Origin: a virus
Lineage: Duplodnaviria; Caudoviricetes
IMG/VR virus record: IMGVR_UViG_3300028603_000024
Location: 38,030-102,029 of that record
Direction: 5' to 3' (one strand)
DNA length: 64,000 nucleotides
Within the stretch, counting starts at the first letter, position 1. Each line of letters opens with the position of its first letter. Below the pieces are notes generated by a model. That model saw nothing but the letters and a program-made list of their open reading frames with translations, had not been told where the DNA came from and did not search any database. This document shows, one piece after another, positions 18,489 to 50,071 of the stretch. Both the position numbers and the translations under genes were made by a program.

Positions 18489-18591
18489 TCGCAGCTTCCA
18501 GTGCACGCTTAGCCTTGTTCTTGGCCGACCTCTTGCCGTAAATCCTCGCACACATCGAAGTAACCACGTCAATGAAGTCCTGAACCAACTC
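18478..18591 (-). pseudogene. tnpA: C-terminal remnant of IS607 serine-recombinase TnpA
   Basis: Own translation ELVQDFIDVVTSMCARIYGKRSAKNKAKRALEAANED*, matching the IS607 TnpA C-terminal helix. In frame with an ATG at 18651 (57-aa ORF). HTH and catalytic Ser region are absent. Confidence 0.8.
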
Positions 18592-27338: not shown

Positions 27339-29471
27339 TCAGCCACCCAGGCCGAGCAGCTGATAATCCCCGGCCCCGCCGGACTGTGTCTCAATCGATT
27401 TCTTCTTCAACGTCAGCAAGGTGTCTCCCAGTTCCTCCGCCAGGTTCTCCAAGGAGTCCTCGAGCTGCGGAACGGTCTCGGCGCCGAACTGGTCTTCCAG
27501 CTCCTCACGGTGCGCGTACAGCAGTAGAAGAATGCGGCAAATGTGATCCAGCCCGAGGGTCAGATTACCCAACAACTCGTCGATCGCCCCGATAACGTTG
27601 TGTCGCCGGAATAATGAATTGATAACGGCGGCGTCAAAAACGGCCTTCTCCCCGGATTGAGCGGCATCAACGACCTTTTCCACGTCTCTTGCCAGGAAGG
27701 GATCACCACTACCGACATCCAGCTCAGCCGGGGTGTCGTAGGTCTGCGGCGAAGATTGTGAATCCGCGTCAATATCAGGAAACGCAGCGGCGTGTTTTAC
27801 CGCAAAAGCTGCAACGCGCCCCGAGGCCTCGGCGGCGTCTGCGGCCTTCAGCACTTCCAGACCGGCGTCGGACGACAAGCCGTGGACGCAGACGAGGTGC
27901 CGCAAAGCCCCTCCGCGAGTCCGTCGACCGCTCCGGAGGACGCCGCACTCCACTTGATACTCCCCGCGATCTGCGGTCGCCGCTAACTTGCGCAGCCCGG
28001 TATCGGCCTGCTTAACTCGCTGCCACATATCCACCGTAAGCGGACACATCAGCCGTTCATTCTTTTTGTCCAGTTTCAGTACACGAACCTCGGAGCCGAC
28101 CAGCAAATTCTGGCCGGCAGGCTGCATGCGCTCCGACTCTTCGCTCAATAGTAATATCGAGTATCCGCGCCGGTAGCAGGGCTCTGGGCCATCGCCGGAA
28201 CGAGCGGAGTATTTGTCGTCGTAGGGAAAAGGGGTCTCTATTTGGTCAACGAACATTTCCACCGCGTCGCCGCCGCGGGGGCCGGGTAGCCCGAAGCCGT
28301 CTGCCCGGCAGGCTCGGAAATCATGCCCCGGCGTGGCGGGCCAGTCCTCTTGGCTAACATAAACCGTGCTCGACCCGGTCCGTGACACCTTACCGATGTA
28401 GGTCAGGGGCAGCGTGGCCCGCATCTTGGAGTCAACCAGCAGAAACTTGTCCCCGGCGGCGAGGTCGGCGGAGCCCGCAAGGGGCAGGTCGTCGAAGGTC
28501 TTCTGCCACTGATCTCGTTCACCCGTCACTGTCAGGTACTGCAAGAAGGTACTGATGTACTCGTTCTTTTCCAGGTTAACGACAACGCCACAGTTGGCCC
28601 GTCCCTCACCCACGGTAACGAGAGATTTGAAGACAGCGGCGGGAACAACCTCTCCACCGTCGGTCACAAGATCATAGATGCCTCCCTGTTGAGGGGCATA
28701 CCACGTCACCGGCGTGGACAGCTGGAGTACCTCGGTAACGTCTTTTATATCCCGATCGTCGTAGAAAGCTACGCCGTTACGCAACAAGTCGTTGCGCTGC
28801 TTGTTGTCCAGGCCCATCGAGGAGAGCCGATCCTCAAAGGTGACTGCCATCGGCTTCTTTGAAGCATCCCACGGCTTCGGTTTTGCGGGAGCCTCGACTC
28901 GATCAGCAATGGCCGCCAGCTTCTGGAAGGGATAGAATTCCAGCACGGCTCGTCCGAAATCGTCGTCGGTTTGCATTGTTCGCAGCAGCGCCGAAGTCGC
29001 CGTCGGAGCAAACATCGGTAGCACCGCCGAGAGATCCAGGGCGGAAGCAATCTTCTCCCCAATATTGGTCAAGGTCCTGGCAACATCCTGGAACAGGCTA
29101 TTACCTCCGCGGCGGGACTCCTCGCGGGTCTCCCGACGACCCACCGACAACGTTTGTCGGCTGAGTACGTAGTCAATCAGAGGCTCACTGAGGGGCAGTA
29201 GTAGATTGTCCTGCTTGAGGTGCATCAAGTTGAGGCCCTTGACGTGGCCGTTCGAGAATACGAGGGGCACTAGGATCTGTTGCGGGCCTAGGCGAAAGGC
29301 GAAGACGCCCTTGGCCTGGGATTCGTCGTCATTGACGTCCAGCAGCTCGAAGCCGACCATGTTCGGCATCAATTTCGGCGATTTCGCTCGAATCTGCGGA
29401 AACACCAGTTGGTGCAGCCTCCGCTCGAACTCACTATCCGAGTTAGCGCCCGCCGTCTTAAACTCGTCCAT
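27339..29471 (-). CDS. large putative head/core protein
   Basis: 710 aa; GAGGAG RBS; KTAG, KIAS, KLAA, KQAD, KLAA, KAAD and KHAA. Confidence 0.6.
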   Translation of the reverse strand: MDEFKTAGANSDSEFERRLHQLVFPQIRAKSPKLMPNMVGFELLDVNDDESQAKGVFAFRLGPQQILVPLVFSNGHVKGLNLMHLKQDNLLLPLSEPLIDYVLSRQTLSVGRRETREESRRGGNSLFQDVARTLTNIGEKIASALDLSAVLPMFAPTATSALLRTMQTDDDFGRAVLEFYPFQKLAAIADRVEAPAKPKPWDASKKPMAVTFEDRLSSMGLDNKQRNDLLRNGVAFYDDRDIKDVTEVLQLSTPVTWYAPQQGGIYDLVTDGGEVVPAAVFKSLVTVGEGRANCGVVVNLEKNEYISTFLQYLTVTGERDQWQKTFDDLPLAGSADLAAGDKFLLVDSKMRATLPLTYIGKVSRTGSSTVYVSQEDWPATPGHDFRACRADGFGLPGPRGGDAVEMFVDQIETPFPYDDKYSARSGDGPEPCYRRGYSILLLSEESERMQPAGQNLLVGSEVRVLKLDKKNERLMCPLTVDMWQRVKQADTGLRKLAATADRGEYQVECGVLRSGRRTRGGALRHLVCVHGLSSDAGLEVLKAADAAEASGRVAAFAVKHAAAFPDIDADSQSSPQTYDTPAELDVGSGDPFLARDVEKVVDAAQSGEKAVFDAAVINSLFRRHNVIGAIDELLGNLTLGLDHICRILLLLYAHREELEDQFGAETVPQLEDSLENLAEELGDTLLTLKKKSIETQSGGAGDYQLLGLGG

Positions 29472-29540: not shown

Positions 29541-31868
29541 TCACGTTCCGAAACCTTGCAACGATTGCCCTGTAACGAGCTTCGGGATGTAGGAATTACT
29601 ATCCATATCAGCGGTACCACCGCGGTGTACGGCGTCCAGTAACCCTCGACCAACATAGAAGGAACCTAGCCGTTCCATCCAATCCGGGCTGGGCAGAAGA
29701 TTTGTCATAGCCCTCTCCATTCGAGGGGTGAAGGGCGGGGGATCGTTATGTACCATGACGCGGTCAACTCGATGTTCCCGCAGTCGGCGGGTTACCGAAG
29801 GTGTCAGCCTGGTACCGATGCTGTAATGCATAACGGGTTGTTCCAGATAGCCGCCTCGCACGCTCTCCAGTGGCGTATCTACGGTGCCGTCCCGTGGTTG
29901 ATATACGGCAGCGAGGCGGTCATACTCCATGACGTCGCCGGGCAAGGCGCCGGGGATCGAATCGGACTCGTCCTGGACTTCTACGTGATTTATTAAGGAG
30001 CGGCTCAGGAGCTCCACGTTACGACGATTGGTATTAATTTTGGACAGTTTCAAAACGTCTCGCATCAAGTCCATAAAATACCGTCGCCCCTCGCCGACTC
30101 CTTTGTACTTAGCAATCATCGCCGGGTTGGGCAAGCCATTACTGAGTACGTCACCGGCTTCGACCCGGTCTCCGACACGCACAGTCACCTCCTGGTCGGG
30201 CGGCACGTAATGTTTCTCGTCTCCGACAATGGCGTACCAACCGCCCTGAGCGGCCTTTTCTATCGCCTTAACCCGGCCGTCGTTAACGGCGTGGGCGGCT
30301 CCGTTGGTGTATGTGGTAGGCACCTGAATGAGCTGGTTAATTACGCCAAAGCCGCCTTGCCGTACGCCGCCGGCGCCGCCGGAATTGGATACGATTAAAC
30401 CGTTGGACAGGGCGAAGAAATGATCGGGGTGATCGACCTCGATATCGTGCGTCTCAACGAGGCCCAAGGGCTCCGAGTGAGTCCGCTGTAATCGGTCGGG
30501 AAGACCTGCCACCCAAGCCTGTAAAGCGGGCTCATCTTCGGTAGTAACTTCCGTCGGCAGGAGGGCGCAAAACGAGTCGGCCTCAAAACCCAGGGGCAGT
30601 TTTCTGGGTGTGTAATCCAACTCGTCTCGACCCCCGGAGATGTAAGACAGACCAAGAATGTTGTGGTCCTCGGTGGCCCCGAGGACTCGCTCCTCCTCGG
30701 GGCTGGAATTATTAAAATAATACAGTCGGCACTCCCGCAGCCCGTTATTAAACACGCGGGTCACCCGAACAGGCGTCAAACGACCTTGGGTGTCCGACCC
30801 AAATACCCAATCTCCAACTTTGATATCCTCTATTCGTTTGTCGGTACCGTCGGCCATCTTGACCATTGTGCCTCGAATAAGGCAGTGTTTCACATTCAAC
30901 GTAAGCTGGCTGAGCTGCTCCGTTATGGTCTGAATCGCAGGGATGCCCACTTGCTCGCCGGGATCAGCGAATCCGCCCCGCTCCCTGATGCCTAAGGCTT
31001 CAAGGGGTACGCCGCCGTCTTCGGCGATGTCTGATATGGGGCTGCGAATCAGTATTTCTTTTACGCCACGGGGCCAATTATTAATCATGCTTGGCGTAAT
31101 CACCTCGCCTGCTTTATAGGGTCCCACGGCCTGCGCGAGAACGGTGCCAACATTGTCGGGGTCGTCGGCCCGTACCGGGAGACCCACACCGGGGCGTAGC
31201 GGGGAATCAGTGGCAATCAATTTATGGGCGGCGAGGGCCAGCTGCTTACTGGCGAAGCCGGCGTCGGCCACAGACATCTTTGTAGCCACTGCTCCCTTGC
31301 GAGTGCCGTACATCTGCATCCAGTACTCCGCCGGTGATAAGCCCTCGGAGTAGCTGCTCGTTACCGGCAACGGTGTGGGATTATCGTTCTGGTCCAGCAT
31401 CAGCACGGGAGAGCCAACAACGGAGTTGAGCTGCGTAGCGTTACCACGAGCACCGCTGGCAACCTCAAGAGCCAAGGGATTATTGTCCTTTAATAACTTA
31501 TCAAAGGTCTCTTGCTCTGCTTGTTTTCCCAACGACCCCAGCAGCTCGAGAATGTGTTTATTTTTATCCGCCAAAGACCCCTCAGCGGCCAGGAGAGTGT
31601 CGACTCGTTTCCGCAGCTTGCGTACCCCGTCCTTAGGCATCGAAACGCTTTGTAGATCTTTCAAACCCACGCTATGCCCGGAAACGTAGGCGGAGAGGCC
31701 GCCGACCTGATGCAGGCGATGCAGAGTTTCACGGTACTTGTCGGGGTGTCGGCGAGCGAGATCGTCGAAGAACTTCTCCGTTGCCCGCTTATCCCAGATA
31801 CGGTTATAGTCCCGCATATCCTCCGGGATCGCTTCGTTAATTAACAGCTGCCCCATCGTGAGTTCCAT
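29541..31868 (-). CDS. RNA polymerase beta' C-terminal subunit (RpoC2-like) with a mini-intein
   Basis: SGARGN; SYSEGLSPAEYW..YGTRKG...ADAGF (F loop and bridge helix); GEQVG..AIQTITEQLSQLTLNVKH|SGG (trigger loop); VGDRVEAGDVLSNG. Confidence 0.9.
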   Translation of the reverse strand: MELTMGQLLINEAIPEDMRDYNRIWDKRATEKFFDDLARRHPDKYRETLHRLHQVGGLSAYVSGHSVGLKDLQSVSMPKDGVRKLRKRVDTLLAAEGSLADKNKHILELLGSLGKQAEQETFDKLLKDNNPLALEVASGARGNATQLNSVVGSPVLMLDQNDNPTPLPVTSSYSEGLSPAEYWMQMYGTRKGAVATKMSVADAGFASKQLALAAHKLIATDSPLRPGVGLPVRADDPDNVGTVLAQAVGPYKAGEVITPSMINNWPRGVKEILIRSPISDIAEDGGVPLEALGIRERGGFADPGEQVGIPAIQTITEQLSQLTLNVKHCLIRGTMVKMADGTDKRIEDIKVGDWVFGSDTQGRLTPVRVTRVFNNGLRECRLYYFNNSSPEEERVLGATEDHNILGLSYISGGRDELDYTPRKLPLGFEADSFCALLPTEVTTEDEPALQAWVAGLPDRLQRTHSEPLGLVETHDIEVDHPDHFFALSNGLIVSNSGGAGGVRQGGFGVINQLIQVPTTYTNGAAHAVNDGRVKAIEKAAQGGWYAIVGDEKHYVPPDQEVTVRVGDRVEAGDVLSNGLPNPAMIAKYKGVGEGRRYFMDLMRDVLKLSKINTNRRNVELLSRSLINHVEVQDESDSIPGALPGDVMEYDRLAAVYQPRDGTVDTPLESVRGGYLEQPVMHYSIGTRLTPSVTRRLREHRVDRVMVHNDPPPFTPRMERAMTNLLPSPDWMERLGSFYVGRGLLDAVHRGGTADMDSNSYIPKLVTGQSLQGFGT
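30384..30884 (-). mobile_element. 167-aa mini-intein in the trigger loop
   Basis: CLIRGTMVKMADGT..IEDIKVGDWV (block A), ATEDH (block B), THDIEV..HFFALSNGLIVSN|S; no endonuclease domain. Confidence 0.9.
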
Positions 31869-32108
31869 CTATCGTCCTCGGGACAGAGAAGAAACCAGAT
31901 CCAGCGGCGTCGTAGAGATGCCGTATTGCTTGCAGTAACCCTCGAAACGAGGGTCGTCGGCAGACAGTACCGCGATGCCGCCGTCGGGAAGCTCGAAAGC
32001 GACGGCGACGACGGCGCCGGCGTTGCCTCGAATCTTGGTTGCCGAGACGCCTGCGAATTTTATAGGCGCAACCATTGGCCCGCCGTCTTTATGTAACTCT
32101 ACAATCAT
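31869..32108 (-). CDS. small hypothetical protein coupled to the beta'-C gene
   Basis: Likely start MIVELHK at 32108 (ATGA overlap); its stop abuts the beta'-C ATG. Confidence 0.55.
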   Translation of the reverse strand: MIVELHKDGGPMVAPIKFAGVSATKIRGNAGAVVAVAFELPDGGIAVLSADDPRFEGYCKQYGISTTPLDLVSSLSRGR

Positions 32109-32566
32109 CCGCTCAGCCCCCTCAAGGTTGCGACCTTGCCGGGTTGCGGCTGCGGGGTAGGTGACGGCGACATGGCGGATTGCGGCGCTGCCCACGGTTG
32201 GGTCGGTTGTGGCGAAGCGCCGCCGCTGATGAGCTGCTGTACCTGCTGTTGGAGTTGCTGCACCTGCTGTTGAAGCTGCTGAAACATTGACAGCGGTACA
32301 ACGGAGGGGCCTTGGGGATCCGCCGGGGGTTCGGTACCTACGGCTTGCTCCTCCTGCCCCTGGGGCACCGCAATAACCGCGATCTTCTCGGTGCCTACTG
32401 TTAAGGAGCCGTTGCGGACGAGGGCTAGAAGCCCCCGAAGACCCTCCGCATTAGCGGGGTCTTCGAAATCAAAGTCGGCTTGAGGGGATATTTGTACCCC
32501 GCTCGATGTTGCCGCCAGTTTCACAAGCCCCAAGCTCTTCGGGAATTGAATCAGCACTTGGCTCAC
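32105..32566 (-). CDS. hypothetical Gln/Pro-rich protein
   Basis: 153 aa; VKLAA, EKIA and a Gln-rich coiled coil. Confidence 0.6.
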   Translation of the reverse strand: MSQVLIQFPKSLGLVKLAATSSGVQISPQADFDFEDPANAEGLRGLLALVRNGSLTVGTEKIAVIAVPQGQEEQAVGTEPPADPQGPSVVPLSMFQQLQQQVQQLQQQVQQLISGGASPQPTQPWAAPQSAMSPSPTPQPQPGKVATLRGLSG

Positions 32567-32584
32567 CGTCTCTTTCTCGGGTCG

Positions 32585-34078
32585 TTAACCTTGGACAGCC
32601 AAGGTAAACTCCGGAGGTACGACACCGCCGGACTGGTGTATCCGTAGACCGTCGATCGTTTCCTTGACCCGCGGACTGTGGTTTTTTACCCGCTCCTTAA
32701 AGGCCGTCTGTCTCTCCGGGGGCCACGATTCAATAAGGGCCTGAAATCGGGGCCATTGAGTGTCTCCCGCAACGGGGGCGGGGGTTGCCGAATTACTTGC
32801 GGTAGCAGATGCCTCCGGCTCGTCCTTAGTCTCGGATCCGCCGCCGAACAATCCGGCAACGCCGCTCAAAACTCGCTGTAGCCAGGAAGCTCCGATTTTA
32901 ACACCCGTTACGGCCTCCTGTGTGTCGGCTCCCAAGGAACCCTCCGCGGCAAGTCCGGCAACACACACCGCGAGGGTCTCGACGTCGTTGGAGAGCAGGG
33001 CATAGGCCCCCGCCTTCTGAAAGGAGGAAACCATGATGGCGCGCTGAATGAGCGGGTGTTTCGCGAGAACCAAGGCCACACCGGCGTGATCTCCAGCCTC
33101 CGCCAGCTTAAAAGAAGCAAAGGCCGCATCTTCGTATTGCTCAATAGGCCACTTGGTGCCGTCGAGGCCGACGACGTGAGATAACGACGCCGCTTTTGTT
33201 CGCAACTGTTCATCGATGCGCACCGCGAAGTCCGCTTTCAAGGGGGTTATCAACTCCTTAACCCGGTCCGTTGCCAGCTTTACAGCCAGTCCCGCTGAGG
33301 TCAGCCCCCGCCGGTCAGCGGCGGCCTCGACCCCGTTTCGCAGGGATCCGGCCAGTTTCATGGTCAGCTGGTGGTCCCGCATACCAGCGGCCAATACGCG
33401 ACGATAGGCTTGTACATCGCCTTTCGCGATCTTAACGACGGCTTGACGGCCTAAGAGACGGTCGTGAATACGCCGTACCAGGCCGCCGCTGCCGCCGGTA
33501 ACCATTGCCGTCGTCACCAGGAATGGCTGAAACTCGGTGAGGTCGTCGAGAGCGGCGCCCTTCTCGATATAATCGGCAGGCACTTGGGCGAGTAGGATAC
33601 GATTTATGGCACTGATGGCGGCTTGCTTGCGAGCCGCCTGCATCGCCAGGGTCCGGGCCACCGCCAACTTCATCGGCTGTACCCCGGCCGGGGGCATCGT
33701 ACCTTGCGCCGCGGCGGGGGGCGCATTGCCCGGCAGCGGTTGGCCCGCGGGGTCCATGACCTGCCCGGCGTCCTGCTGTCGTTGAGCCAGGATCTGCTGC
33801 TTTTCCGCCTCAGCCTTGGAGATCACCTCCTCGGTCTTCAGCTTCTGGACTTCTGCCTTGGCCATCTCGGCATCCGCCTTCATGCCCTCAGCCTCCGCCT
33901 TCACCTGCTTCGCAGCCTGCATCTTGGCCTGCTGCCCCGGCGTCATCGCGGGCGACGCTGACGCGGCCTGTTTGGTGGAGGCGGCCAGGCGGGGTGAGGG
34001 AGATGAACCCCGCCTGGCACTGCCATCCACCCCCTGGAGGAGGTTCATTGCAAATTTTGTCATCTTCTTTGAGTCCAT
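32585..34078 (-). CDS. putative internal head protein
   Basis: 497 aa; GGAGG RBS; at least 9 K-x-A sites. Confidence 0.6.
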   Translation of the reverse strand: MDSKKMTKFAMNLLQGVDGSARRGSSPSPRLAASTKQAASASPAMTPGQQAKMQAAKQVKAEAEGMKADAEMAKAEVQKLKTEEVISKAEAEKQQILAQRQQDAGQVMDPAGQPLPGNAPPAAAQGTMPPAGVQPMKLAVARTLAMQAARKQAAISAINRILLAQVPADYIEKGAALDDLTEFQPFLVTTAMVTGGSGGLVRRIHDRLLGRQAVVKIAKGDVQAYRRVLAAGMRDHQLTMKLAGSLRNGVEAAADRRGLTSAGLAVKLATDRVKELITPLKADFAVRIDEQLRTKAASLSHVVGLDGTKWPIEQYEDAAFASFKLAEAGDHAGVALVLAKHPLIQRAIMVSSFQKAGAYALLSNDVETLAVCVAGLAAEGSLGADTQEAVTGVKIGASWLQRVLSGVAGLFGGGSETKDEPEASATASNSATPAPVAGDTQWPRFQALIESWPPERQTAFKERVKNHSPRVKETIDGLRIHQSGGVVPPEFTLAVQG

Positions 34079-34139
34079 CGTGCGCCTCCAGTTACGGTCA
34101 TCAGGACAAGGCTCTATAATCGTGTTGCTTCAATCGCGG

Positions 34140-35015
34140 CTAAAGGGGCGGAGAACCGGTTGGGAGCGGTCCCCGAGCCCTCGGAGGTCCCTGAAGCTCC
34201 TTTTCTATCGTCGTCAAACTATTGAGCCCCGAGGTACGAAGAAGTTCAGCTAGAGCCTGCTGGCTGGGCAGTTTGGCCTTGGCCCGCTCAGATAAGTGAG
34301 GATGACGGATTATATCCTGCAGCATCTGTCCCCCTGACGGAGCAGAGACCATATCCCGTAGATGACTCAAGGCCTCGTCTCTCGGCAAGCCTTGGTAGAT
34401 TTGACCAGCCACGGCTCTACTCATTGCACCCGGAACTGCGCCCACCATGTCCGCCACAGCCGAGTCCGCCTTGGCCTGGCTGCTATGCGGGGCCAATAGG
34501 GCGTTGGCTCCCAAGCCCAAGCCGCCGCCGGCGAGACCCCCGAGAAGCAGGTTGCGAAGCCAATTCTTATCCTCCTCGTCCGACAAGGCCGAGAACAGAG
34601 CTCCGGTACCTGCCCCAAGAGCGGCGCCGCCGAGGCCGAGGCCGGTGGGTCCGAGGTTCGCGGCGGTTTCCACGACGTCGCCGACACCGGCTCGCTTCTC
34701 GGCGGTTAAGGCGAGGGCTGCGTTGTAAGCTGCCTGTTTGTTCGTCATCGCTGTCTCCTGCGTAGTCGCTTTCAGTATACCACGAGCTAAAAAAAGTCGC
34801 TGGCACGCCTGACGCATCTCCGCCTCCTTGACCCCGGTGGCGTCGGTATCACAGCTGCTGCAGCGATCCGGCACCTCCACTACTTGATGAGCCCGAGGGC
34901 GGCTGCAGCGACAGGTGCGAATGGTGTGCCCACAAGAACCGCGGATCGTACCGTGCCCCTTATAACCCTCATTAAGAAAGGCTTCGGCTTCTTTCATGGA
35001 GGCAAACTTGCGCAT
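34140..35015 (-). CDS. Zn-finger N-terminus plus Gly-zipper protein (possible internal start at 34748)
   Basis: SCGH..TCRC...CSSC, then MTNKQAA preceded by AGGAG; EKRAG followed by a Gly-rich hydrophobic hairpin. Confidence 0.55.
   Translation of the reverse strand: MRKFASMKEAEAFLNEGYKGHGTIRGSCGHTIRTCRCSRPRAHQVVEVPDRCSSCDTDATGVKEAEMRQACQRLFLARGILKATTQETAMTNKQAAYNAALALTAEKRAGVGDVVETAANLGPTGLGLGGAALGAGTGALFSALSDEEDKNWLRNLLLGGLAGGGLGLGANALLAPHSSQAKADSAVADMVGAVPGAMSRAVAGQIYQGLPRDEALSHLRDMVSAPSGGQMLQDIIRHPHLSERAKAKLPSQQALAELLRTSGLNSLTTIEKELQGPPRARGPLPTGSPPL
34774..34802 (-). promoter_or_regulatory. internal promoter CAGCGA-N17-TATACT (extended -10)
   Basis: TGGTATACT with a T-rich spacer; GCGA at the same spacing as at 14298 and 29538; RBS and ATG follow. 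Confidence 0.45.
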
Positions 35016-35017
35016 CT

Positions 35018-38000
35018 CTAACCCCCCGTGAGGCCCGCGAGGGCCTCGTCAAGATCCACCATCCGCGGCTTTGATCCCGGGATGATGACGTTGTCGTCCA
35101 TATTGATTTCGCCCCGCTGGAAGGCGGCAATGGCGGCTTTGGCACTTTCGAATATCTTGGGGGCCTTCCTCTTGGTTTTCGTCGCCGGCCGGCTGGCGGC
35201 GAAGAGACCGTACTGATACTCCTGTCGAGGCATGAAGTGGGCCTTGAAGTTCTTGACGTCAATCAGCTGCTTAGAGGGCATCATCTTTTCGATCACCTCC
35301 CGACGGGCCTCCTCGGAGGCCGGTACGTGGAAGGACATGGTGTCATAAACAACCAGACCATTATTCACCGCGAAGACCTTGGTGCCCAACACCGCGAGGT
35401 CGTAGACGTCTTTGCAGCCCGTGGGCGTTACTGACTTAACCGGCTCCCAGATCACGTCGACGTTCTCAACGCGACGCTGCAGGGCCTCCAGACCGGACGA
35501 TCCGGCAATTGCAAATAATCGCTGCAAGGAAGCCCTGGCCACACGGCCCTTAGCCACGGCCACGTAAAGCGACTGCATCTGCTTGTCTGTTTTGTAGCCA
35601 AGACAGATGCCCCGGATTGCGGTAATCTCGGCCCGGGAGAGCGGGATGATGTCACGATCATCCTTTGTCGGAGGGTTTTCAAGAAGCCGATGCCACGCGG
35701 TAATATTCTCCTCACCGATGAACCGCAGATTGGCCCGGTGGCGATATAGATCTACGCTGCTTACCGTCAGGGTGTAGGCCTCTCGACTGTGACCCCGAGC
35801 CGGCGAAGTTGTGACACCGATGCGGATACCAAGCCGGCTGCCGAGGACCAAAGCGGAGTCCCGGAGGAACGGGCTGGAGGTGTGCAACAGGGCCGAGAAT
35901 TGCGGCTTCTTTTTACTGTTGAGCCAAGTCATGGAGGCATCACCGTCCAGGAGCCCGCAGAGCAGGCCGAACAGGCAGTGCTCGGAACCCTCGTCAAGCA
36001 GGAAGGGCGGGATGTGCTTATAGCAGGCCGCTCGCTCATCGTCCGGTACCGGCGCCGCCAAGATATCCAACGTCTTGTTCACGAGGCCTCGCCCGTTCAT
36101 GTGGATCTTCGCAGAGTCGGCGTACTTACCGTTTTCTTCGGTCTTCTCCGCCAAGTACTCGTAGGTCTTAAAATCTTTACAAATCAACTCTCGGGCAAGC
36201 TGCTCGACCCTCGCCCGTCGCTTCGGGTCACTCTTGGAATAACCAACGGTGCGATCTGTTCGCCAGCCGTCAGCGATGATTACACCGTACCACCAGCCGA
36301 GGTCAAAGCTACCGTAGGTGCCGAATTGGGGGCTCCGACGCACCACAGGGCACAAGCCTCCAAGAGAGTCCCGGGGCGCCACTTTCTTCAGTCGCCCGGT
36401 GTCGGGGTCGAAAACCGCAAGGCTTTCATTGTCGCTCACCCCCACCGCGTGACTGGAGGTACGCACCTCAACGCAGGGCACACTTGCCTCGTGCGTGAAG
36501 TGCGTGACATCGGCAAAGCACTGTTTTCCTGTATCCACGTCATACGACAACACCTGCAGTCCCGGGGGGACGGCGTAGACATCGGCACCGTTGCGGTCCT
36601 TGACCGGCTCACCTACGCGAGGGAACTCCCCGATCTGCAAGGATCTCAATCTTCCCGCCTCTTGCATCATAACCATACTTGTATATATTACGCAATTTCC
36701 GTCGAAATCCGCATTCAGTTGTTTAGTTATCTGCGGACTTATACGTAACGAGTCCGTGGCGGAGAGTACGGGCCAAGCCCCGAGGATGCTATAGCGGTGC
36801 AGCGACGGCGCTCGGTTAATCATCACGGGGCGGTGCTCCATCTCCTCCAGCATAGCATCCCGGGCCACTGAGGCATGCTCCTTGACGGCCTTGGCGGCCT
36901 CCAAGGGCTTAAGACCGCGGCCTACGAGACGCTTCATGATGAAGGGCGAATAGACTTTCCACGCCGATTTCTCCGGAATTGCAACGTGATCCATATCCAG
37001 CCTCGGGTCCGGCGTGATTACCGCCCGGCCCCCCAAGTTAACGGTGCCGCCCATCAGCTTCCTCTGAAACAGGCCGGTCTTCGGTCCGCCGCTGCCGAAG
37101 ATAACCGAGAGCAGGCCCTTGGCCTTGCGTTGCTGCGTCTCCCGGTTGATCGGATCGCCGAGGCCCACAACGGCCTTGGCGGCGTCGTAGAGGGCAAGAA
37201 GTTCGTCACCGCTGTGCTCCTTACCCAGGTCCCGAGACAAATCCCGGTACACACCGCGGGCCTGCAAGAGATCTTTGTACAGCATGTTGGAGCCGTTAAC
37301 GAGGGGTACGTCATTCATCATTGAGATCGGACGATGCGCCGGCGGCAGCACAGGCAGTTTGGTGATCAGCATCTCCTGCGGTTTTAAGCCGGTCTCCTGG
37401 AACATGGTCAGAATCCGCAGCTTTTTAATCGCCTTATCCCTCGCGGTTCGAGCGCCGGTGCGGATCTTCTCCTTCGCGGCTGTAACACCTCTCTCGACGT
37501 CAATTCGTCGCAGGGCCGCTTCAATCGCCTCCGGTCCGGACTTCCCCTGAAACTGCGTCTTGCCGGCTAGAATATCACGCAACTGCGACTCGGTGAGATC
37601 GAGCAGCTTGCGGATCGGATCCTCCATCACAGGGTTTGGAATCTTGGTACCCAGCTCGATCTTGGCGAAGCGGTCCCCGCCGTGCCCGCCAGTAATACCG
37701 CGGTCGAAAAGTCCGCCCTTGACGGGTTCCAGGTCGGGCAGCCGCACCGTTTCCGCTTCGGTTATCTCGCCCTGAGCCAGTTCGTCAACCATGTCATCGG
37801 TCATAGCCATGATGTTTAATTTAGAGCCATCTTGCTGCACATTAACGCCGCTGGCTGCCAGGAGGCTGAGAAATTTGTTCAACATCGGCGAGGCCTTCGG
37901 TTTCGGGGGTGCGTAGCCCATACGGATCGCCCGCCAATATTCTTCATTACGATGCCCACGAACGATATTGGCGTCGTCGAGAACATTGGTGGCGCCAGCG

Positions 38001-40771
38001 GAAAGCAAGGCGTTGAGCTCCATTAACCCGAATCTTGGGGCCGACTCGTCTCCACCTTTGGCCGGCGCCCCCTCAGCGGTGTGTCCGCCGGCATCGCCCC
38101 GCCCACTGACTTTACTCTCGGCGAGGTGGTGCAGCCGCATGTAGAATCGCTTGCCGGCGCTTACCTTGGGTATTTTGCGGTTCAAGACGGGGTCGAAAAT
38201 ATCCATCTCGGAAGACATCCCACGACTCTTGAGTTCCTCAAGAGTCCGCCGCGTGAAGTCCGACTTGCTGAAGGCTGCGATATTAATCGGTTTGCCGTCT
38301 TTAGCGGCAATGCGGCCCCAAGCGGCCTCCACGGACTGGATCGGATTGCCGCGACTGATGATGCCGAAGGGGTTGACGAGCGCGTCAAACGGATTTCCAT
38401 CCTCATCGGTGGGCATCTGATGATCCGGAAGTATAGAGCTAATTATATGTTTGTCGCCAAAGCGCCCTGCCATCTTATCCCCGACGTGAGCCGGGTTCTC
38501 CGCTTTGATGGCCACCACCAGGCCGCGGGGGCCGGCGGCGACGTCGGTTACGAAACCGGGTGCATCATGATCCCATACCACGGAATTATCAACATACCGC
38601 GGTTTACCCCCGGAAAGCATGCCAGTCTTCTTCGGCCGACTACGGCTGGTGGCGAGAATGACGGGGTCGCCTTTCTGCACCGTTGTTCCCGGCTTTATCG
38701 TACCGTCGTCATCGATCTGCTTGAGTTGCTCCTTCTTGTATACCGCAGGAAACAGAGCCGTGAACCGTTTTTTGTCCGGCTCGCCGCCGTCGCGATCCAG
38801 TTTCTTGGTGTACATCTGCTCCGCTACCAACTTCTTAGCGCCGCTCTCGCTGAGCGTAATGGCGTCTTCATAGTTCGACGACCCGCCGCGGATGAAGGGG
38901 ACGTAGGCCACGTTAAGATTGGTACCTAAGGCCAAGGTGCCTTCGTCGTCAGTCATGTTACTGGTGGCCAGGAGCTGCCCGTCTTCAACGGCCTGCCCGA
39001 TCTCCACGCGAGGTGTGTGCTTCAGCATCGTACGCCGATTGTAGGGTACATAATTGGCGATTGAGTACTTACGCTTCTTGCCGTCCTCGCCTTGAACCTC
39101 TATATCATCATCGGTAACATTGGTAACCACGCCGCCGCCTCTCGCCGACACGGCCCCGATACGGCGTCCTAGCTGCCGTTCATAGGACTCCTCCCCGGGT
39201 TCCCCGGTCTGTACAAGGGGCGCCTCTCGGTGGACCAACGGCAGCGCCTGGGAGATGAACTTGGCGCCGAGGAAGACACGACCGCCACTGTCGCCCGATA
39301 TTCCCGGGATCAATTTACTCTGCATCGCGAACAGGCTATCACCGCGGGGCATGATATAATCAACACGATCCCGTGGCACCCTCTGAAGTTTACCGTGGGC
39401 CACGGCGAGAACAACATCGTCGTCCTCCTCCATTTCACCTGGGAAGGCGATGATGGAATCTGCGGCGGTATCATTGTCCAAGGAGACCGATTTACCGCTA
39501 CGGGCATCAATCATGGGGGCGTAGATACGACCGTCACGACCCTTCAAGGCACTATCAACGAAACGAAGATCGACGCCCACCTTAGAGCTCTCCGGCGTTC
39601 GGATCCCATCGATGTAGCCGGCGTAGGAGGGTTGTACGTTCCTCGCCTCGTCAGGCACGGCTTCCACTGACGGGATGGCTCCCTCACCCAAGCGAACCAC
39701 CCTTGAGAGCTGGTCGTATATCTCGGTAGGATTAGTCTCCTCCGGCGGCGACGCCAGCCCGGAAGAGAGTAGGACCTGGTCTATGTGCTTATTGAAAATA
39801 CCGGCCGGAATCTGGTCAAGATTACCTCGTTTGGCCAGCTTGTAAGTCAAGCTTTTGACTACCCGGCCGGCGTCGTTCTTAATACGCTCCCGAAAAAGAT
39901 CTTCGTGCCCGACGACTCGTTGATATGCGAGACCGTCTCGGTTATCGGGCTCGATGTCACCCCGATGCAACTTCAAGATAGCAGTCATCGAGTCCATCAA
40001 GGCGTCGGAACTTAAGCGATCATAGGGTCGGCCGATAGCGGATCTTGCGGTGGCGTCGGGGTCGTAACGGAATCGCGAGAGCTCCTCCCGGAGTTTCTCC
40101 TCGTCGCTGCGGTTATCACCTTCGACGTCTCGCACCCCAAAATCCCGCAAGGCTCTTGCGAGCACGCCGGGTCGGATCTTTTCGGTATTGGCGGCATAAA
40201 GATCCTTGCCGAGAGCTTCAAATAAGGTTTTATCCTCGGCTCCCAAAGCCTTCAGGATCGGTACAATAGGCAGGTTGGCCTGCCCGGTGCGCAGGAAGAA
40301 CCTACCAGTCTCGGGCGCGAATCGAACTCGAAATTGTTTTCCGGTACCCACGGCAGTATTGAAGTGACTTTCAATTTCTCCGTTCCGCTTGCGGTGAGTA
40401 AATACTCCCGGTCTTAACCTGGCCTGGTTGGCCAGGGCGTACTCCACACCGTTGCGGATATAGGTCCCCCGATGCGTCAAAGTCGGCGCGAGGGCCAACA
40501 ACTTCTTTTTGCGGTCCAGCTCCTCACCGTCTCGCTCCAGTACCCAAGTACCGTATACCGGCGTACCGATAGTGCCGCGACCCAGCAAGGCCCTCTTGTG
40601 CGCCGCATAACTTAGGTCTGGAGCCTTACCGGCCTCGACATCCGTCAGCCGTAGCGTGGTGGCGCCGTAGGACACTGGTTCGAAAGATTGTAGCGCTCCC
40701 AAGGTGTCATCCAGCACCAGCTGCCGCGTGGTGTCGATGTCGTCAAAACGGCGAGGCTCTGAGGCCCTCAT
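35018..40771 (-). CDS. RNA polymerase beta subunit fused to the beta' N-terminal part, containing an active-site intein
   Basis: Beta motifs: GTYIRNGVEY, RTPESSKVG, QALPL, NYEDAI, GDKMAGR, RFGLMELNAL. Beta' motifs: GGLFD..ITG, LPVLPPAHRP, GRAVITP, NRAPSLHR, NADFDG, MSFHVP. Confidence 0.93.
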   Translation of the reverse strand: MRASEPRRFDDIDTTRQLVLDDTLGALQSFEPVSYGATTLRLTDVEAGKAPDLSYAAHKRALLGRGTIGTPVYGTWVLERDGEELDRKKKLLALAPTLTHRGTYIRNGVEYALANQARLRPGVFTHRKRNGEIESHFNTAVGTGKQFRVRFAPETGRFFLRTGQANLPIVPILKALGAEDKTLFEALGKDLYAANTEKIRPGVLARALRDFGVRDVEGDNRSDEEKLREELSRFRYDPDATARSAIGRPYDRLSSDALMDSMTAILKLHRGDIEPDNRDGLAYQRVVGHEDLFRERIKNDAGRVVKSLTYKLAKRGNLDQIPAGIFNKHIDQVLLSSGLASPPEETNPTEIYDQLSRVVRLGEGAIPSVEAVPDEARNVQPSYAGYIDGIRTPESSKVGVDLRFVDSALKGRDGRIYAPMIDARSGKSVSLDNDTAADSIIAFPGEMEEDDDVVLAVAHGKLQRVPRDRVDYIMPRGDSLFAMQSKLIPGISGDSGGRVFLGAKFISQALPLVHREAPLVQTGEPGEESYERQLGRRIGAVSARGGGVVTNVTDDDIEVQGEDGKKRKYSIANYVPYNRRTMLKHTPRVEIGQAVEDGQLLATSNMTDDEGTLALGTNLNVAYVPFIRGGSSNYEDAITLSESGAKKLVAEQMYTKKLDRDGGEPDKKRFTALFPAVYKKEQLKQIDDDGTIKPGTTVQKGDPVILATSRSRPKKTGMLSGGKPRYVDNSVVWDHDAPGFVTDVAAGPRGLVVAIKAENPAHVGDKMAGRFGDKHIISSILPDHQMPTDEDGNPFDALVNPFGIISRGNPIQSVEAAWGRIAAKDGKPINIAAFSKSDFTRRTLEELKSRGMSSEMDIFDPVLNRKIPKVSAGKRFYMRLHHLAESKVSGRGDAGGHTAEGAPAKGGDESAPRFGLMELNALLSAGATNVLDDANIVRGHRNEEYWRAIRMGYAPPKPKASPMLNKFLSLLAASGVNVQQDGSKLNIMAMTDDMVDELAQGEITEAETVRLPDLEPVKGGLFDRGITGGHGGDRFAKIELGTKIPNPVMEDPIRKLLDLTESQLRDILAGKTQFQGKSGPEAIEAALRRIDVERGVTAAKEKIRTGARTARDKAIKKLRILTMFQETGLKPQEMLITKLPVLPPAHRPISMMNDVPLVNGSNMLYKDLLQARGVYRDLSRDLGKEHSGDELLALYDAAKAVVGLGDPINRETQQRKAKGLLSVIFGSGGPKTGLFQRKLMGGTVNLGGRAVITPDPRLDMDHVAIPEKSAWKVYSPFIMKRLVGRGLKPLEAAKAVKEHASVARDAMLEEMEHRPVMINRAPSLHRYSILGAWPVLSATDSLRISPQITKQLNADFDGNCVIYTSMVMMQEAGRLRSLQIGEFPRVGEPVKDRNGADVYAVPPGLQVLSYDVDTGKQCFADVTHFTHEASVPCVEVRTSSHAVGVSDNESLAVFDPDTGRLKKVAPRDSLGGLCPVVRRSPQFGTYGSFDLGWWYGVIIADGWRTDRTVGYSKSDPKRRARVEQLARELICKDFKTYEYLAEKTEENGKYADSAKIHMNGRGLVNKTLDILAAPVPDDERAACYKHIPPFLLDEGSEHCLFGLLCGLLDGDASMTWLNSKKKPQFSALLHTSSPFLRDSALVLGSRLGIRIGVTTSPARGHSREAYTLTVSSVDLYRHRANLRFIGEENITAWHRLLENPPTKDDRDIIPLSRAEITAIRGICLGYKTDKQMQSLYVAVAKGRVARASLQRLFAIAGSSGLEALQRRVENVDVIWEPVKSVTPTGCKDVYDLAVLGTKVFAVNNGLVVYDTMSFHVPASEEARREVIEKMMPSKQLIDVKNFKAHFMPRQEYQYGLFAASRPATKTKRKAPKIFESAKAAIAAFQRGEINMDDNVIIPGSKPRMVDLDEALAGLTGG
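35342..36694 (-). mobile_element. 451-aa atypical intein with a LAGLIDADG homing endonuclease
   Basis: Starts CVIYTSMV and ends VYDLAV..KVFAVNNGLVVYD|T; LAGLIDADG motifs WYGVIIADG and LLCGLLDGDA. Confidence 0.85.
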
Positions 40772-48301: not shown

Positions 48302-50071
48302 CTACGCAGGTTGTGTAAACTGGGCGGCATCCGTACCTCGCTGCTGCCGCATCCTATCCATGGCTTGAACAACGGCGTCGTGCAACAAAGAATCTTCGTT
48401 TCTCAACTGTGTTAATTGCGGTCGTCGTTGCTCCGGCGGTTGCTGCAACAGCTCGCCGGCGATCTGCTCTGCTCGCGCCAAGATGTCATCCGGTCGCTGC
48501 GGTGTATTACTTAAGGTGCCCGGCCCTGTCATACCGCCACCACCGGCCTCAGTAGGCTGTTGCTGCTGCGACGCCAAACTGTTGACGGCGGACAAGTTCT
48601 GCGTCGCCGCATCCTGCCGCATCGCGGCAACGTCGGCATCGGTCTGCATATCGATCTGCTCTCTGACCATCTCCCGATTTTCGGTTACCGGGTCAAGCTT
48701 AAGCGGTCCGAGGCCGGTACGGCCGCTGATCCGACCGTTCATGTAGAGGTCCAGCAATATCTGTCGCAATTCGATGTCATCCGCCGCGGTAACGGATTCC
48801 ATGCTCAGCTGAGGCTTCTTCCACCGCAGCAGTCTGCTGAAAGTGTCAGCGACCCAGCCTAGGGTGGCGTCGTAACCGGAAACAAGTTCCGCCCAAGTGC
48901 GTTCCATGAGCCGCAGGGTGGGGGCGAACATTCGCTCGTTTTTGAAGCTGCCTACAAAGAAATCAACCGGGATACCCAAGCCGCTCAACAACTGTTCCAT
49001 TACTTGATTCTGGATCTCGTGGGTTGCCAGCTGCATACCTTCGCCACCCCAGGCAGAATATTGAATCGGCACCGGGAAGGTATGGATGGCTGCCGGATCT
49101 CGTTTCCAAGCCGCAACCATGCCAGTCAGCTTATGAGACAAGGACTCCATGTTAACGCCCATCGAGGGGTCGAGCTCAGCGGCAGCCCGAGGCCCCGGGG
49201 TCAGGGACCGCAGCGGGGTGGAATACTCCATGCCCAGCACCATGTTTAGTCGCTGGAGTACCTGGCCGTGGTAAGCCTGCCTGAAATTGGCCATAGCCCG
49301 TGGCAGCCCCAAGCCTCGCGTATTAACGCCGGCCAAGGGAGTGTCTTGGAGGTGGAAGATATATTCGGGGTGTAGCCGTAACGGCCGACGATCTACGGCG
49401 CACTGCACGAACTCCCAAGGGGTATCCTCGAGGACGTCGGGGTCGCCTTGTCGTATCGGCTCGGCGTCATCGTTAGGCAGCACGTGACGATAAACATTTT
49501 TACCCGTCACCCCATTGTGCTTGACCCGCATCGTGTGCGGATTCCAGATACGGATACCTACAGCATCGGAAGTCATCGGCCGCAAGTCAATCCTCTCGAG
49601 CGGGCCGCGACCGCCGCAACGGGGGCAGCGGCGGGTCGAAAACGTCAGTTTATCAAACTTATAATCCCACTGAGACAGCGGCGCCGTCTGCCCGCATTGC
49701 CGGCATCGTAGCATGCGAGCAACCGACATTTGCGGACTCATCATGACGTTGCCGTAAGCCAGGTTATTACGGCCTACGTTACACATGAAACGATTGATGT
49801 GGAAGGTATTCTCGAGGAAGTCCAGCCAACGCTCGGTCTCCGCCTTATCCAGGCCGTCTACTTTGACCCGGGTAACAAAAAACGCAGATACCCGGGTCAG
49901 GGCCTGGCTGTAGATGCCGTTGGCATACCACAGTAACTCACAGAACCGAAATATCTCGTTGATATCGTTCGGCAAAGCATGGGAGGCAGGATCCAGCCAG
50001 GGGCTGGGGAATACGCCTGCCGTGCCTTGTTTCTCGGCTGTTGCCGGATCTACTTGATTAAAAATGGTCAT
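48302..50071 (-). CDS. portal protein with a Zn-ribbon insert
   Basis: 589 aa; NNLAYGNVM, IFHLQD..LAG...GLGLP and LLSGLGIPVDF patterns; CRQC/CPRC insert; heads the head module. Confidence 0.75.
   Translation of the reverse strand: MTIFNQVDPATAEKQGTAGVFPSPWLDPASHALPNDINEIFRFCELLWYANGIYSQALTRVSAFFVTRVKVDGLDKAETERWLDFLENTFHINRFMCNVGRNNLAYGNVMMSPQMSVARMLRCRQCGQTAPLSQWDYKFDKLTFSTRRCPRCGGRGPLERIDLRPMTSDAVGIRIWNPHTMRVKHNGVTGKNVYRHVLPNDDAEPIRQGDPDVLEDTPWEFVQCAVDRRPLRLHPEYIFHLQDTPLAGVNTRGLGLPRAMANFRQAYHGQVLQRLNMVLGMEYSTPLRSLTPGPRAAAELDPSMGVNMESLSHKLTGMVAAWKRDPAAIHTFPVPIQYSAWGGEGMQLATHEIQNQVMEQLLSGLGIPVDFFVGSFKNERMFAPTLRLMERTWAELVSGYDATLGWVADTFSRLLRWKKPQLSMESVTAADDIELRQILLDLYMNGRISGRTGLGPLKLDPVTENREMVREQIDMQTDADVAAMRQDAATQNLSAVNSLASQQQQPTEAGGGGMTGPGTLSNTPQRPDDILARAEQIAGELLQQPPEQRRPQLTQLRNEDSLLHDAVVQAMDRMRQQRGTDAAQFTQPA

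What the first reader, a model, noticed from the sequence alone, without database searches (positions are those of the whole stretch)
29541..40771. Phage multisubunit RNAP with an unusual partition, embedded in the head module
Seen: beta runs directly into the beta' N-terminus (junction near QQDGSK, 37820..37837) and stops about 105 aa after the catalytic loop. The rest of beta' (funnel, bridge helix, trigger loop) is a separate gene 3.1 kb away, with four ORFs between them. Both lie between portal and protease, among K-x-A proteins. No alpha or omega subunit was recognised. Established: beta-beta' fusions occur in Helicobacter and Wolbachia, a beta' split near this point occurs in cyanobacteria (RpoC1/C2), and phiKZ-like phages package an RNAP. 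Inference: a streamlined, bacterial-like, probably virion-packaged RNAP combining fusion and split. It may belong to the RNAP-encoding Caudovirales reported from metagenomes.
Basis: partly seen in the sequence, partly recalled or inferred. Interest (0 to 1): 0.78.

Follow-up and report, generated by a model that had tools for sequence, protein, structure and literature searches.

The report
Two-chain phage RNA polymerase, fused then split
This uncultured ~200 kb phage makes its only RNA polymerase from two proteins (beta fused to the first half of beta-prime, plus the second half of beta-prime), a layout shared by hundreds of uncultured phages and by Salmonella phage Arash, where both proteins are among the most abundant in the virus particle.

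Summary
ORF 35018-40771 (-) joins a complete beta to beta-prime up to about 105 residues past the catalytic loop. ORF 29541-31868 (-) is the rest of beta-prime, 3.15 kb and four ORFs downstream. Each chain carries an intein. The layout is not a peculiarity of this contig. More than 100 protein clusters and at least 423 IMG/VR stretches encode the same beta::beta'N fusion. In 48 of 80 fetched loci beta'C is a separate gene 0.85-7.4 kb downstream. In a sister clade of 21 loci beta and beta-prime form one 2,020-2,150-aa ORF. Four complete relatives (204-229 kb) hold one RNAP set and no alpha or omega. The genes lie between the portal and the major capsid protein. The cultured relative Arash has the same layout, and its paper reports both chains and a sigma factor as abundant virion proteins without noting the partition. 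The window's sigma-like ORF aligns with that sigma. Most intervening ORFs vary between lineages and look like processed head proteins. One 79-aa ORF is conserved, with unknown function. A caveat is that the catalytic loop reads DFDGN here against DFDGD in 117 relatives, and this is reproduced in independent metagenomes. I rate it a new variant of a known kind.

The parts
35018..40771 (-). beta::beta'N fusion gene. It encodes 1917 aa, or 1466 aa after intein removal.
   Evidence: Pfam Rpb2_3, Rpb2_6, Rpb1_1 and Rpb1_2. PDB mapping is and the Salmonella RpoB/RpoC mapping. Relatives at 43-62% identity cover residues 1-1367.
37823..40771 (-). Beta module (about residues 1-983). It ends at the equivalent of RpoB residue 1338 of 1342.
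37820..37837 (-). Beta to beta' junction (QQDGSK). The beta' N-terminus follows directly, and the beta' zinc ribbon is absent.
   Evidence: The pairwise alignment shows a gap where the four Cys of the Salmonella ribbon lie. The junction is conserved across alignment A1.
36695..37822 (-). Beta' N-terminal half up to the catalytic loop, which reads NADFDGN (Asn codon at 36695-36697).
35342..36694 (-). 451-aa LAGLIDADG intein inserted in the catalytic loop. It starts with Cys, ends Tyr-Asp and is followed by Thr.
   Evidence: Pfam Intein_splicing and LAGLIDADG_3. Boundaries follow from homology to intein-free relatives.
35021..35341 (-). 107-residue beta' segment after the catalytic loop. It ends in the loop just before the TTxGQ motif.
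   Evidence: It aligns to beta' of Thermus and actinobacteria and to cyanobacterial gamma residues 472-555.
34140..35015 (-). Intervening ORF of 291 aa, with no family match and no homolog in related loci. K-x-A-[ASG] is enriched.
32585..34078 (-). Intervening ORF of 497 aa, with no family match and no homolog in related loci. K-x-A-[ASG] is enriched.
32105..32566 (-). Intervening ORF of 153 aa, with no match.
31869..32108 (-). Family Y, a conserved 79-aa protein. Its stop codon abuts the beta'C start codon.
   Evidence: hmmsearch gave E 2e-17, and the family occurs in 33 loci. The AF2 model has pLDDT 85, with five strands and one helix. Foldseek found no PDB match.
29541..31868 (-). Beta'C gene (funnel, bridge helix, trigger loop, C-terminal clamp). 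It encodes 775 aa, or 608 aa after intein removal.
   Evidence: Pfam Rpb1_5. A homolog was found in 71 of 81 loci.
30384..30884 (-). 167-aa mini-intein in the trigger loop.
   Evidence: Pfam Hint and Hom_end_hint.
27339..29471 (-). 710-aa protein conserved directly downstream of beta'C in 31 loci. K-x-A-[ASG] is enriched and the function is unknown.
48302..50071 (-). Portal protein.
   Evidence: tblastn matches Arash gp204, annotated as portal, and 40 related loci.
19243..20241 (-). Major capsid protein.
   Evidence: 29% identity to Arash gp226, E 2e-28.
514..1203 (-). Divergent sigma-70-family factor of 229 aa.
   Evidence: Pfam Sigma70_r3 scores 35 bits and Sigma70_r4 25.5 bits, both above their cut-offs. 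TIGR02937 gives E 9e-8. The ORF is collinear with Arash gp10 at E 8e-7.

Best explanation
The two genes encode the only RNA polymerase of this phage. It is a bacterial-type, sigma-using core made of two chains. Chain 1 (1466 aa once its intein is spliced out) is a complete beta joined directly to the beta' N-terminal half: clamp, clamp helices and the catalytic double-psi barrel. [quoted passage not shown] The covalent link between beta and beta'N probably replaces the assembly role of the alpha dimer, which the phage lacks along with omega (inferred). Both zinc sites of beta' are also gone. The genes are transcribed with the head genes. By analogy with phage Arash, the enzyme and a sigma factor are packed into the capsid and injected to start early transcription. 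Because there is only one RNAP set, newly made enzyme would also serve later stages (inferred). The layout is a clade-wide trait. Its most economical origin is a fully fused beta::beta' gene, as kept in the sister clade, that was cut once in the loop before the TTxGQ motif. Cyanobacteria, plastids and phiKZ-like phages split beta' at about the same point. The gap has since become a variable island of head-associated genes.
For: Domain content and collinearity with RpoB and RpoC are shown. The fusion is conserved in more than 100 protein clusters at 43-62% identity over residues 1-1367, on contigs up to 227 kb, and in at least 423 IMG/VR stretches. The gene order portal, fusion, gap, beta'C holds in 71 of 81 loci. 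Of these, 48 are split and 21 have a single ORF. In the tree the split clade has support 1.0 and the fused clade 0.815, and each is monophyletic. The closest longer relatives of beta'C are fully fused phage proteins, not free-standing beta'. Each complete genome has one Rpb2_6 match and one Rpb1_2 match. Alpha and omega were not found. The sigma factor is supported. The head-module position is supported. Arash virion mass spectrometry gave 3516 spectra for Gp206, 1210 for Gp216 and 467 for sigma Gp10 (PMC10585845). The split position is mapped, and PMC7598289 states that the phiKZ and cyanobacterial split sites coincide. The same sequence occurs in metagenomes from separate studies.
Against: Packaging is inferred from a relative with only about 30% identity. 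The Arash authors themselves caution that abundant intracellular enzymes may contaminate virion preparations. The catalytic loop reads DFDGN here, whereas all 117 relatives checked have DFDGD, so the activity of this particular enzyme is unproven. The rooting rests on one bacterial outgroup, so the direction of change (fused first or split first) rests on parsimony. Region 2 of the sigma-like ORF was not detected by Pfam. Host alpha or omega could still be recruited. No expression data were available.
Confidence: 0.72

Rival explanations
1. The enzyme is an ordinary non-virion RNAP made during infection. Its place in the head module is incidental, and the Arash mass-spectrometry signal reflects carry-over of an abundant cytoplasmic protein.
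For: The Arash virion list also contains ribonucleotide reductases, RNA ligases and kinases, and the authors raise the possibility of contamination. The RNAP chains do not carry the K-x-A-[ASG] motif above chance, unlike neighbouring head proteins.
Against: Gp206 gave more spectra than the major capsid protein (3516 against 1333), and Gp216 gave about as many (1210). The position between portal and capsid genes is conserved in both the fused and the split clades. With a single RNAP set per genome, an enzyme made only after infection would leave early genes dependent on the host RNAP.
Confidence: 0.15
2. The intervening ORFs are RNAP subunits that stand in for alpha and omega, so the enzyme has more than two chains and the gene cluster is an RNAP operon.
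For: Family Y (79 aa) is conserved in 33 loci, always just upstream of beta'C. Its stop codon abuts the beta'C start codon in the window and lies 1 nt away in L003.
Against: Y is absent from the Arash subclade and from the fused clade. Its predicted fold of five strands and one helix has no PDB match and is unlike the helical omega. Family X is a low-complexity Pro/Gly repeat protein and is missing from the window. The 291-, 497- and 153-aa ORFs have no homologs in 81 loci, and two of them carry the head-protein K-x-A-[ASG] signature.
Confidence: 0.15
3. In this particular phage the polymerase is catalytically dead or impaired, because the third catalytic Asp is Asn after splicing. The gene would then be a decaying or repurposed copy.
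For: The loop reads DFDGN against DFDGD in 117 of 117 relatives. The intein ends in Tyr-Asp instead of His-Asn. From general knowledge of multisubunit RNAPs, all three Asp coordinate the catalytic Mg ion.
Against: Both ORFs are intact over 2.7 kaa. Letter-for-letter identical sequence across both codons occurs in contigs from a 2022 groundwater study and a separate landfill study, so the variant propagates. It is the only RNAP in the lineage.
Confidence: 0.2

Closest known systems
Salmonella phage Arash Gp206/Gp216 (OQ632216; PMC10585845) and Vibrio phages D69, D148 and D181
   Same: They share the beta::beta'N fusion, a separate beta'C downstream, a portal just upstream, the capsid gene downstream and phage sigma factors. 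In Arash both chains are abundant in virions.
   Different: Identity is only about 26-30%. Their intervening genes are different, and family Y is absent. Arash beta'C keeps a four-Cys site that the window's has lost. They have no inteins at these sites, and their catalytic loop is DFDGD. The published annotation does not recognise the partition, and in D69 both genes are labelled hypothetical.
phiKZ/AR9-type jumbo-phage multisubunit RNAPs (virion and non-virion)
   Same: They are phage-encoded two-barrel RNAPs without alpha or omega. Beta' is split after the catalytic barrel at the cyanobacterial position (PMC7598289). One of their two enzymes is packaged.
   Different: Their beta is cut into two or three pieces rather than fused. 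They have two RNAP sets per genome against one here. They have no recognisable sigma, whereas this phage has one. Their sequences are far more divergent from bacterial RNAP.
Helicobacter and Wolbachia RpoBC fusion
   Same: The beta C-terminus is joined directly to the beta' N-terminus in one polypeptide (PMC7483510, citing Zakharova 1999 and Lane & Darst 2010).
   Different: The cellular fusions contain all of beta' and work with alpha2 and omega. Here beta' is cut again, although the sister phage clade has the complete single-chain form.
Cyanobacterial and plastid RpoC1 (gamma) / RpoC2 (beta' or beta'') split
   Same: The beta'C N-terminus lies within about 10 residues of the N-terminus of RpoC2 and plastid beta''.
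   Different: In those systems beta is a separate chain and the two beta' genes are adjacent. The gamma chain extends about 45 residues further than the phage tail.
mReC, the RNAP-encoding Caudovirales of Weinheimer & Aylward 2020 (PMC7481178)
   Same: They are uncultured tailed phages with RNAP subunits recognisably related to the bacterial ones.
   Different: Their table lists separate beta (about 1150 aa) and beta' (about 1410 aa) genes far apart on the contig. The text mentions no fusion or split in these phages. One contig from metagenome 3300014720 is in their table, but it is a different contig from L016, which comes from the same metagenome.

Membership tests
Bacterial-type multisubunit RNAP core | Beta with a double-psi barrel (Rpb2_6) and collinearity with RpoB | tested here: met
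   Rpb2_6 scores E 1e-40. Residues 61-960 align to cyanobacterial beta 71-1036.
Bacterial-type multisubunit RNAP core | Beta' catalytic loop NADFDGD with three Asp | tested here: not met
   The window reads NADFDGN followed by the intein, while 117 of 117 relatives have DFDGD. The sequence is reproduced in independent runs. The clade as a whole meets this feature.
Bacterial-type multisubunit RNAP core | Bridge helix and trigger loop module (Rpb1_5) | tested here: met
   Rpb1_5 scores E 2e-13. Residues 2-328 align to Mycobacterium tuberculosis beta' 665-1016.
Bacterial-type multisubunit RNAP core | Alpha dimer and omega subunits | tested here: not met
   PF01000 and PF01192 are absent from the contig and from four complete relatives, while all 14 control genomes matched.
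Bacterial-type multisubunit RNAP core | Sigma-70-family initiation factor | tested here: met
   In window 514-1203, Sigma70_r3 and Sigma70_r4 score above their cut-offs. Region 2 was not detected.
Bacterial-type multisubunit RNAP core | Two zinc sites in beta' | tested here: not met
   Neither mature chain contains any Cys. The N-terminal ribbon is lost across the clade, and the second site is lost in the window's subclade.
Arash-like phage RNAP (beta::beta'N plus beta'C) | One ORF spanning beta and beta' up to just past the catalytic loop | tested here: met
   A single tblastn piece covers residues 4-1367 in Arash and D69. Searches show the same in uncultured relatives.
Arash-like phage RNAP (beta::beta'N plus beta'C) | A separate beta'C gene downstream on the same strand, within the head module | tested here: met
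Arash-like phage RNAP (beta::beta'N plus beta'C) | Presence of both chains in virions | not testable with these tools
   This is published for Arash only.
phiKZ-like virion RNAP | Beta' split after the catalytic barrel | tested here: met
   with PMC7598289
phiKZ-like virion RNAP | Beta split into two or three polypeptides | tested here: not met
   Beta is intact and fused.
phiKZ-like virion RNAP | Two paralogous RNAP sets per genome and no sigma | tested here: not met
   Each genome has one set, and a sigma factor is present.
Helicobacter-type RpoBC | Complete beta and complete beta' in one chain | tested here: not met
   The window's chain stops at about RpoC residue 575. The feature is met in 21 sister-clade loci.
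mReC (Weinheimer & Aylward 2020) | Separate beta and beta' proteins, each at least 800 aa, with NADxDGD in the beta' protein | tested here: not met
   The catalytic motif lies in the same protein as beta, and beta'C lacks it.

The most novel reading that the evidence does not exclude
This clade carries a self-sufficient, sigma-directed bacterial-type RNA polymerase that needs no alpha, omega or zinc. It is built from two chains, or from a single chain of about 2,050 aa in the sister clade, and is packed with its sigma factor into the capsid and injected. That would be a virion-borne sigma holoenzyme, and the smallest known bacterial-type core. In addition, the window's enzyme would work with, or repair, an Asn in place of the third catalytic Asp that the active-site intein leaves behind.
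Probability: 0.4. Interest if true: 0.82.

Novelty: new variant of a known kind. Interest (0 to 1): 0.66.

Why it matters
Phage multisubunit RNAPs are known mainly from phiKZ-like phages, which are highly divergent, cut into many pieces and lack sigma. This is a second, much more bacterial-like solution that is widespread in uncultured ~200 kb phages and present in at least four cultured ones. It has one enzyme per genome, uses sigma, lacks alpha and omega, and holds beta and beta' together by a covalent link. It gives a natural test of what the alpha dimer, omega and the zinc sites are needed for. The sister clade offers single-chain beta::beta' enzymes that could be expressed from one gene. 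Arash provides a tractable isolate in which injected-holoenzyme transcription can be tested. The comparison of fused and split clades also shows beta' being cut at the same loop as in cyanobacteria, plastids and phiKZ. That argues the site is structurally permissive rather than inherited.

Tried and rejected
IMG/VR loci were used instead.
- A single-protein scan of IMG/VR found nothing. The alignment-based scan worked.
- Pfam and PHROGs gave no hits for the four intervening ORFs, the flanking head-module ORFs or families X and Y.
- The Foldseek PDB search with the Y model gave no match at E <= 0.001.
- Complex prediction for beta'C plus Y from L003 returned no verdict (score 0.00). This is neither for nor against binding.
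- The ESM Atlas lookup for the 710-aa downstream protein returned only low-TM rows from a low-confidence model.
- Arash sigma gp196 has no detectable homolog in this contig. Sigma70_r2 was not detected in any of five genomes.
- I considered family X as an alpha-like platform because of its length (about 240 aa). I rejected this because it is a Pro/Gly repeat protein.
- I considered that the C-terminal extensions of long beta'C relatives were fusions to the 710-aa neighbour. I rejected this because they show no similarity.
- No deep phylogeny against cellular, phiKZ and mReC enzymes was built. The only outgroup was Salmonella RpoB plus RpoC.
- X4 contigs leave about 36280-36657 uncovered, and no conclusion is drawn from that gap.
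Full report
**What is in the window.** The window is the last 64 kb of a 102-kb IMG/VR virus record that CheckV estimates to be about 51% complete. All sizeable genes lie on the minus strand, and very few match Pfam or PHROGs.

ORF 35018-40771 encodes 1917 aa. It matches Rpb2_3 and Rpb2_6 (beta), Rpb1_1 and Rpb1_2 (beta' N-terminal half), plus intein and LAGLIDADG domains. ORF 29541-31868 encodes 775 aa and matches Rpb1_5 plus Hint domains.

With the inteins removed, chain 1 has 1466 aa. Its residues 743-979 align to Salmonella RpoB 1041-1338 of 1342, and residues 1059-1432 align to RpoC 160-546. Beta therefore runs to its natural end at the QQDGSK junction (37820-37837), and beta' follows at once. 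A pairwise alignment shows that the roughly 30 residues holding the four Cys of the beta' zinc ribbon are missing.

Chain 1 stops 107 residues after the catalytic loop. Chain 2 (608 aa mature) begins with MELTMGQLLINEAIP, which is the TTVGR motif region of E. coli beta'. Its N-terminus aligns 7-11 residues from the N-terminus of cyanobacterial RpoC2 and plastid beta''. The tail of chain 1 aligns to cyanobacterial gamma residues 472-555 of 624.

**It is a clade-wide design.** A search of 5.8 billion proteins returned more than 100 clusters of 1,445-1,494-aa proteins. These cover 99% of residues 1-1367 at 43-62% identity and come from contigs up to 227 kb. An alignment-based scan of IMG/VR confirmed at least 423 relatives, and 80 loci were fetched.

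Among these loci plus Arash, beta'C lies downstream of the fusion on the same strand in 71 of 81. A homolog of window ORF 48302-50071, which matches the Arash portal gp204, lies upstream in 40.

ORF analysis gave two forms. In 48 loci beta'C is a separate gene 0.85-7.4 kb downstream. In 21 loci beta and all of beta' form one ORF of 2,018-2,150 aa, or up to 2,649 aa with inteins.

A FastTree analysis of the concatenated enzyme (1,963 trimmed columns, Salmonella outgroup) makes the split forms one clade with support 1.0. This clade includes the window, Arash and Vibrio phage D69. The fused forms make the sister clade with support 0.815.

The closest longer relatives of beta'C are these fully fused phage proteins at 25-31% identity, not free-standing beta'. 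At the split site the fused proteins read straight through a short loop into the T-T-x-G-R motif. The split proteins end and restart in that same loop.

Starting from adjacent rpoB and rpoC, the fused-first route needs two events and the split-first route needs three. I therefore favour a single split of a fused ancestor. This is an inference, because the tree has only one outgroup.

**One enzyme, with sigma and without alpha or omega.** Four complete relatives (204-229 kb, two of them with terminal repeats) each have exactly one Rpb2_6 match and one Rpb1_2 match, both inside the fusion ORF. PF01000 (alpha) and PF01192 (omega) are absent from them and from this contig, while all 14 control genomes matched.

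Window ORF 514-1203 (229 aa) scores above the Pfam cut-offs for Sigma70_r3 and Sigma70_r4 and matches TIGR02937 at E 9e-8. It is collinear over nearly its whole length with Arash gp10 (pairwise E 8e-7).

Neither mature chain contains a single cysteine. The fusion protein is Cys-free in almost all relatives. Beta'C keeps exactly four Cys in the Arash subclade and most of the fused clade, but has none in the window's subclade. The N-terminal zinc ribbon was therefore lost early, and the second zinc site was lost later.

**Position and packaging.** The RNAP genes lie between the portal (48302-50071) and the major capsid protein (19243-20241, 29% identity to Arash gp226, E 2e-28). Arash has the same order: portal gp204, fusion gp206, nine small genes, beta'C gp216, an SNF2 helicase gp217, structural genes and then capsid gp226.

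The Arash paper reports virion mass spectrometry. Gp206 was the most-detected protein with 3516 spectra, Gp216 had 1210 and the capsid protein 1333. Sigma Gp10 had 467 spectra at 100% coverage (PMC10585845). The authors call the proteins beta and beta' and do not mention a fusion or a split. They also warn that abundant enzymes might be carried over.

In Vibrio phage D69 both genes are annotated as hypothetical. Packaging in the window's phage is thus an inference from a relative with 26-30% identity, supported by the conserved head-module position.

**The intervening genes.** The 291-, 497- and 153-aa ORFs have no homolog in any of the 81 loci and no family match. Clustering of all inter-gene ORFs across loci gave two recurrent families.

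- **Family X** (about 240 aa, 27-35 loci) is a Pro/Gly-rich repeat protein and is not found in this contig.
- **Family Y** (68-95 aa, 33 loci) includes window ORF 31869-32108 (E 2e-17). Its stop codon abuts the beta'C start codon. Its AF2 model (pLDDT 85) has five strands and a helix with no PDB match. Y is absent from the Arash subclade and from the fused clade, so it is not a universal subunit.

The motif K-x-A-[ASG], proposed elsewhere in this scan as a head-protease signal, is enriched in four nearby ORFs:

- the 291-aa ORF (3 observed, 0.5 expected);
- the 497-aa ORF (5 observed, 1.6 expected);
- the conserved 710-aa ORF downstream of beta'C (5 observed, 0.7 expected);
- several head genes.

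It is not enriched in the RNAP chains (1 observed against 2.6 expected, and 0 against 0.5). The gap therefore looks like a variable island of head-associated proteins.

**A caveat on activity.** The catalytic loop reads NADFDGN, followed by an intein that starts with Cys, ends Tyr-Asp and is followed by Thr. All 117 relatives checked read DFDGD, including those with other insertions at the same site. Standard splicing would leave Asn where the third metal-binding Asp should be.

Contigs from four public runs in separate studies match this 1.6-kb stretch without a single difference. Two of these runs are not likely sources of this DNA: a 2022 groundwater run and a separate landfill run. Both cover both codons. 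The sequence is therefore real and the phage persists, but whether the enzyme tolerates or repairs the Asn is open.

**Comparison with known systems.**

- **phiKZ and AR9.** Their enzymes share the lack of alpha and omega and the beta' split site (PMC7598289). They differ in cutting beta into pieces, coming in two sets and having no recognisable sigma (PMC7824862).
- **Helicobacter and Wolbachia.** These fuse beta to a complete beta' (PMC7483510).
- **mReC.** The phages of Weinheimer and Aylward are listed with separate beta (about 1150 aa) and beta' (about 1410 aa) genes, and their text mentions no fusion in them.
- **Recent reviews.** A 2026 review still describes RNAP-encoding jumbo phages as lacking sigma, and sigma-encoding ones as lacking RNAP (PMC13282480).

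I found no paper that describes this partition. The search library is incomplete, so this is not proof of absence.

**Verdict.** The window holds one member of a large, essentially undescribed clade with a distinct RNAP architecture. A cultured member of that clade has already been shown to carry the enzyme in its virions. I rate it a new variant of a known kind, of moderate to high interest.

Noticed in passing
window 36695-36697 and 35342-35344: The last residue before the active-site intein is Asn instead of the catalytic Asp, and the intein ends in Asp instead of Asn. All 117 relatives checked keep DFDGD. Contigs from a 2022 groundwater study and a separate landfill study carry identical sequence across both codons.
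   Followed up: partly
window 29541-31868 and 35018-40771 (mature chains): Outside the inteins, neither RNAP chain contains a cysteine, so both beta' zinc sites are gone. Beta'C keeps exactly four Cys in the Arash subclade and most of the fused clade.
   Followed up: partly
window 31869-32108; L003:15075-15314 and 31 other loci: A conserved 68-95-aa protein (family Y) sits directly upstream of beta'C, with its stop at or 1 nt from the beta'C start. The confident AF2 model (five strands and one helix) has no PDB match.
   Followed up: partly
L003:14360-15085 and 26 other loci (alignment A3): A protein of about 240 aa made of GGAPPMDP-like Pro/Gly repeats follows the fusion gene in many relatives but is missing from this contig.
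   Followed up: partly
L034, L040, L057, L060, L061 and 16 other loci: In a sister clade, a single ORF of 2,018-2,150 aa encodes beta and all of beta'. These are natural single-chain bacterial-type RNAP cores in phages.
   Followed up: partly
proteins P0122-P0135: Some beta'C relatives carry 800-1,100 extra residues at the C-terminus. This extension is unlike the window's 710-aa neighbour and is partly Pro/Gly-rich.
   Followed up: partly
L081:9758-16066: A fused-clade gene is interrupted by one in-frame stop (713 aa followed by 1388 aa). I did not determine whether this is an error, a pseudogene or recoding.
   Followed up: no
L001:25133-26551 (Arash gp217): An SNF2-family helicase is encoded directly after beta'C in Arash and is reported in its virions. 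The window has an unrelated 710-aa protein at that position.
   Followed up: partly
window 17403-18572: A TnpB-like gene (Cas12f1-like TNB domain and OrfB_IS605) sits inside the head gene block.
   Followed up: no
window 47669-48283: A 204-aa ORF with a GAF domain lies just downstream of the portal gene.
   Followed up: no
proteins P0005, P0017, P0044, P0136-P0148; loci L039, L066, L071: Inteins are frequent at several sites in both RNAP chains across the clade, and some beta'C genes carry three or more.
   Followed up: no
protein P0163: A 2,280-aa metagenomic protein has precomputed Pfam hits to alpha (PF01000, PF01193), beta and beta' domains in one chain. It is a distant match to beta'C (28% identity), and I did not examine it.
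   Followed up: no
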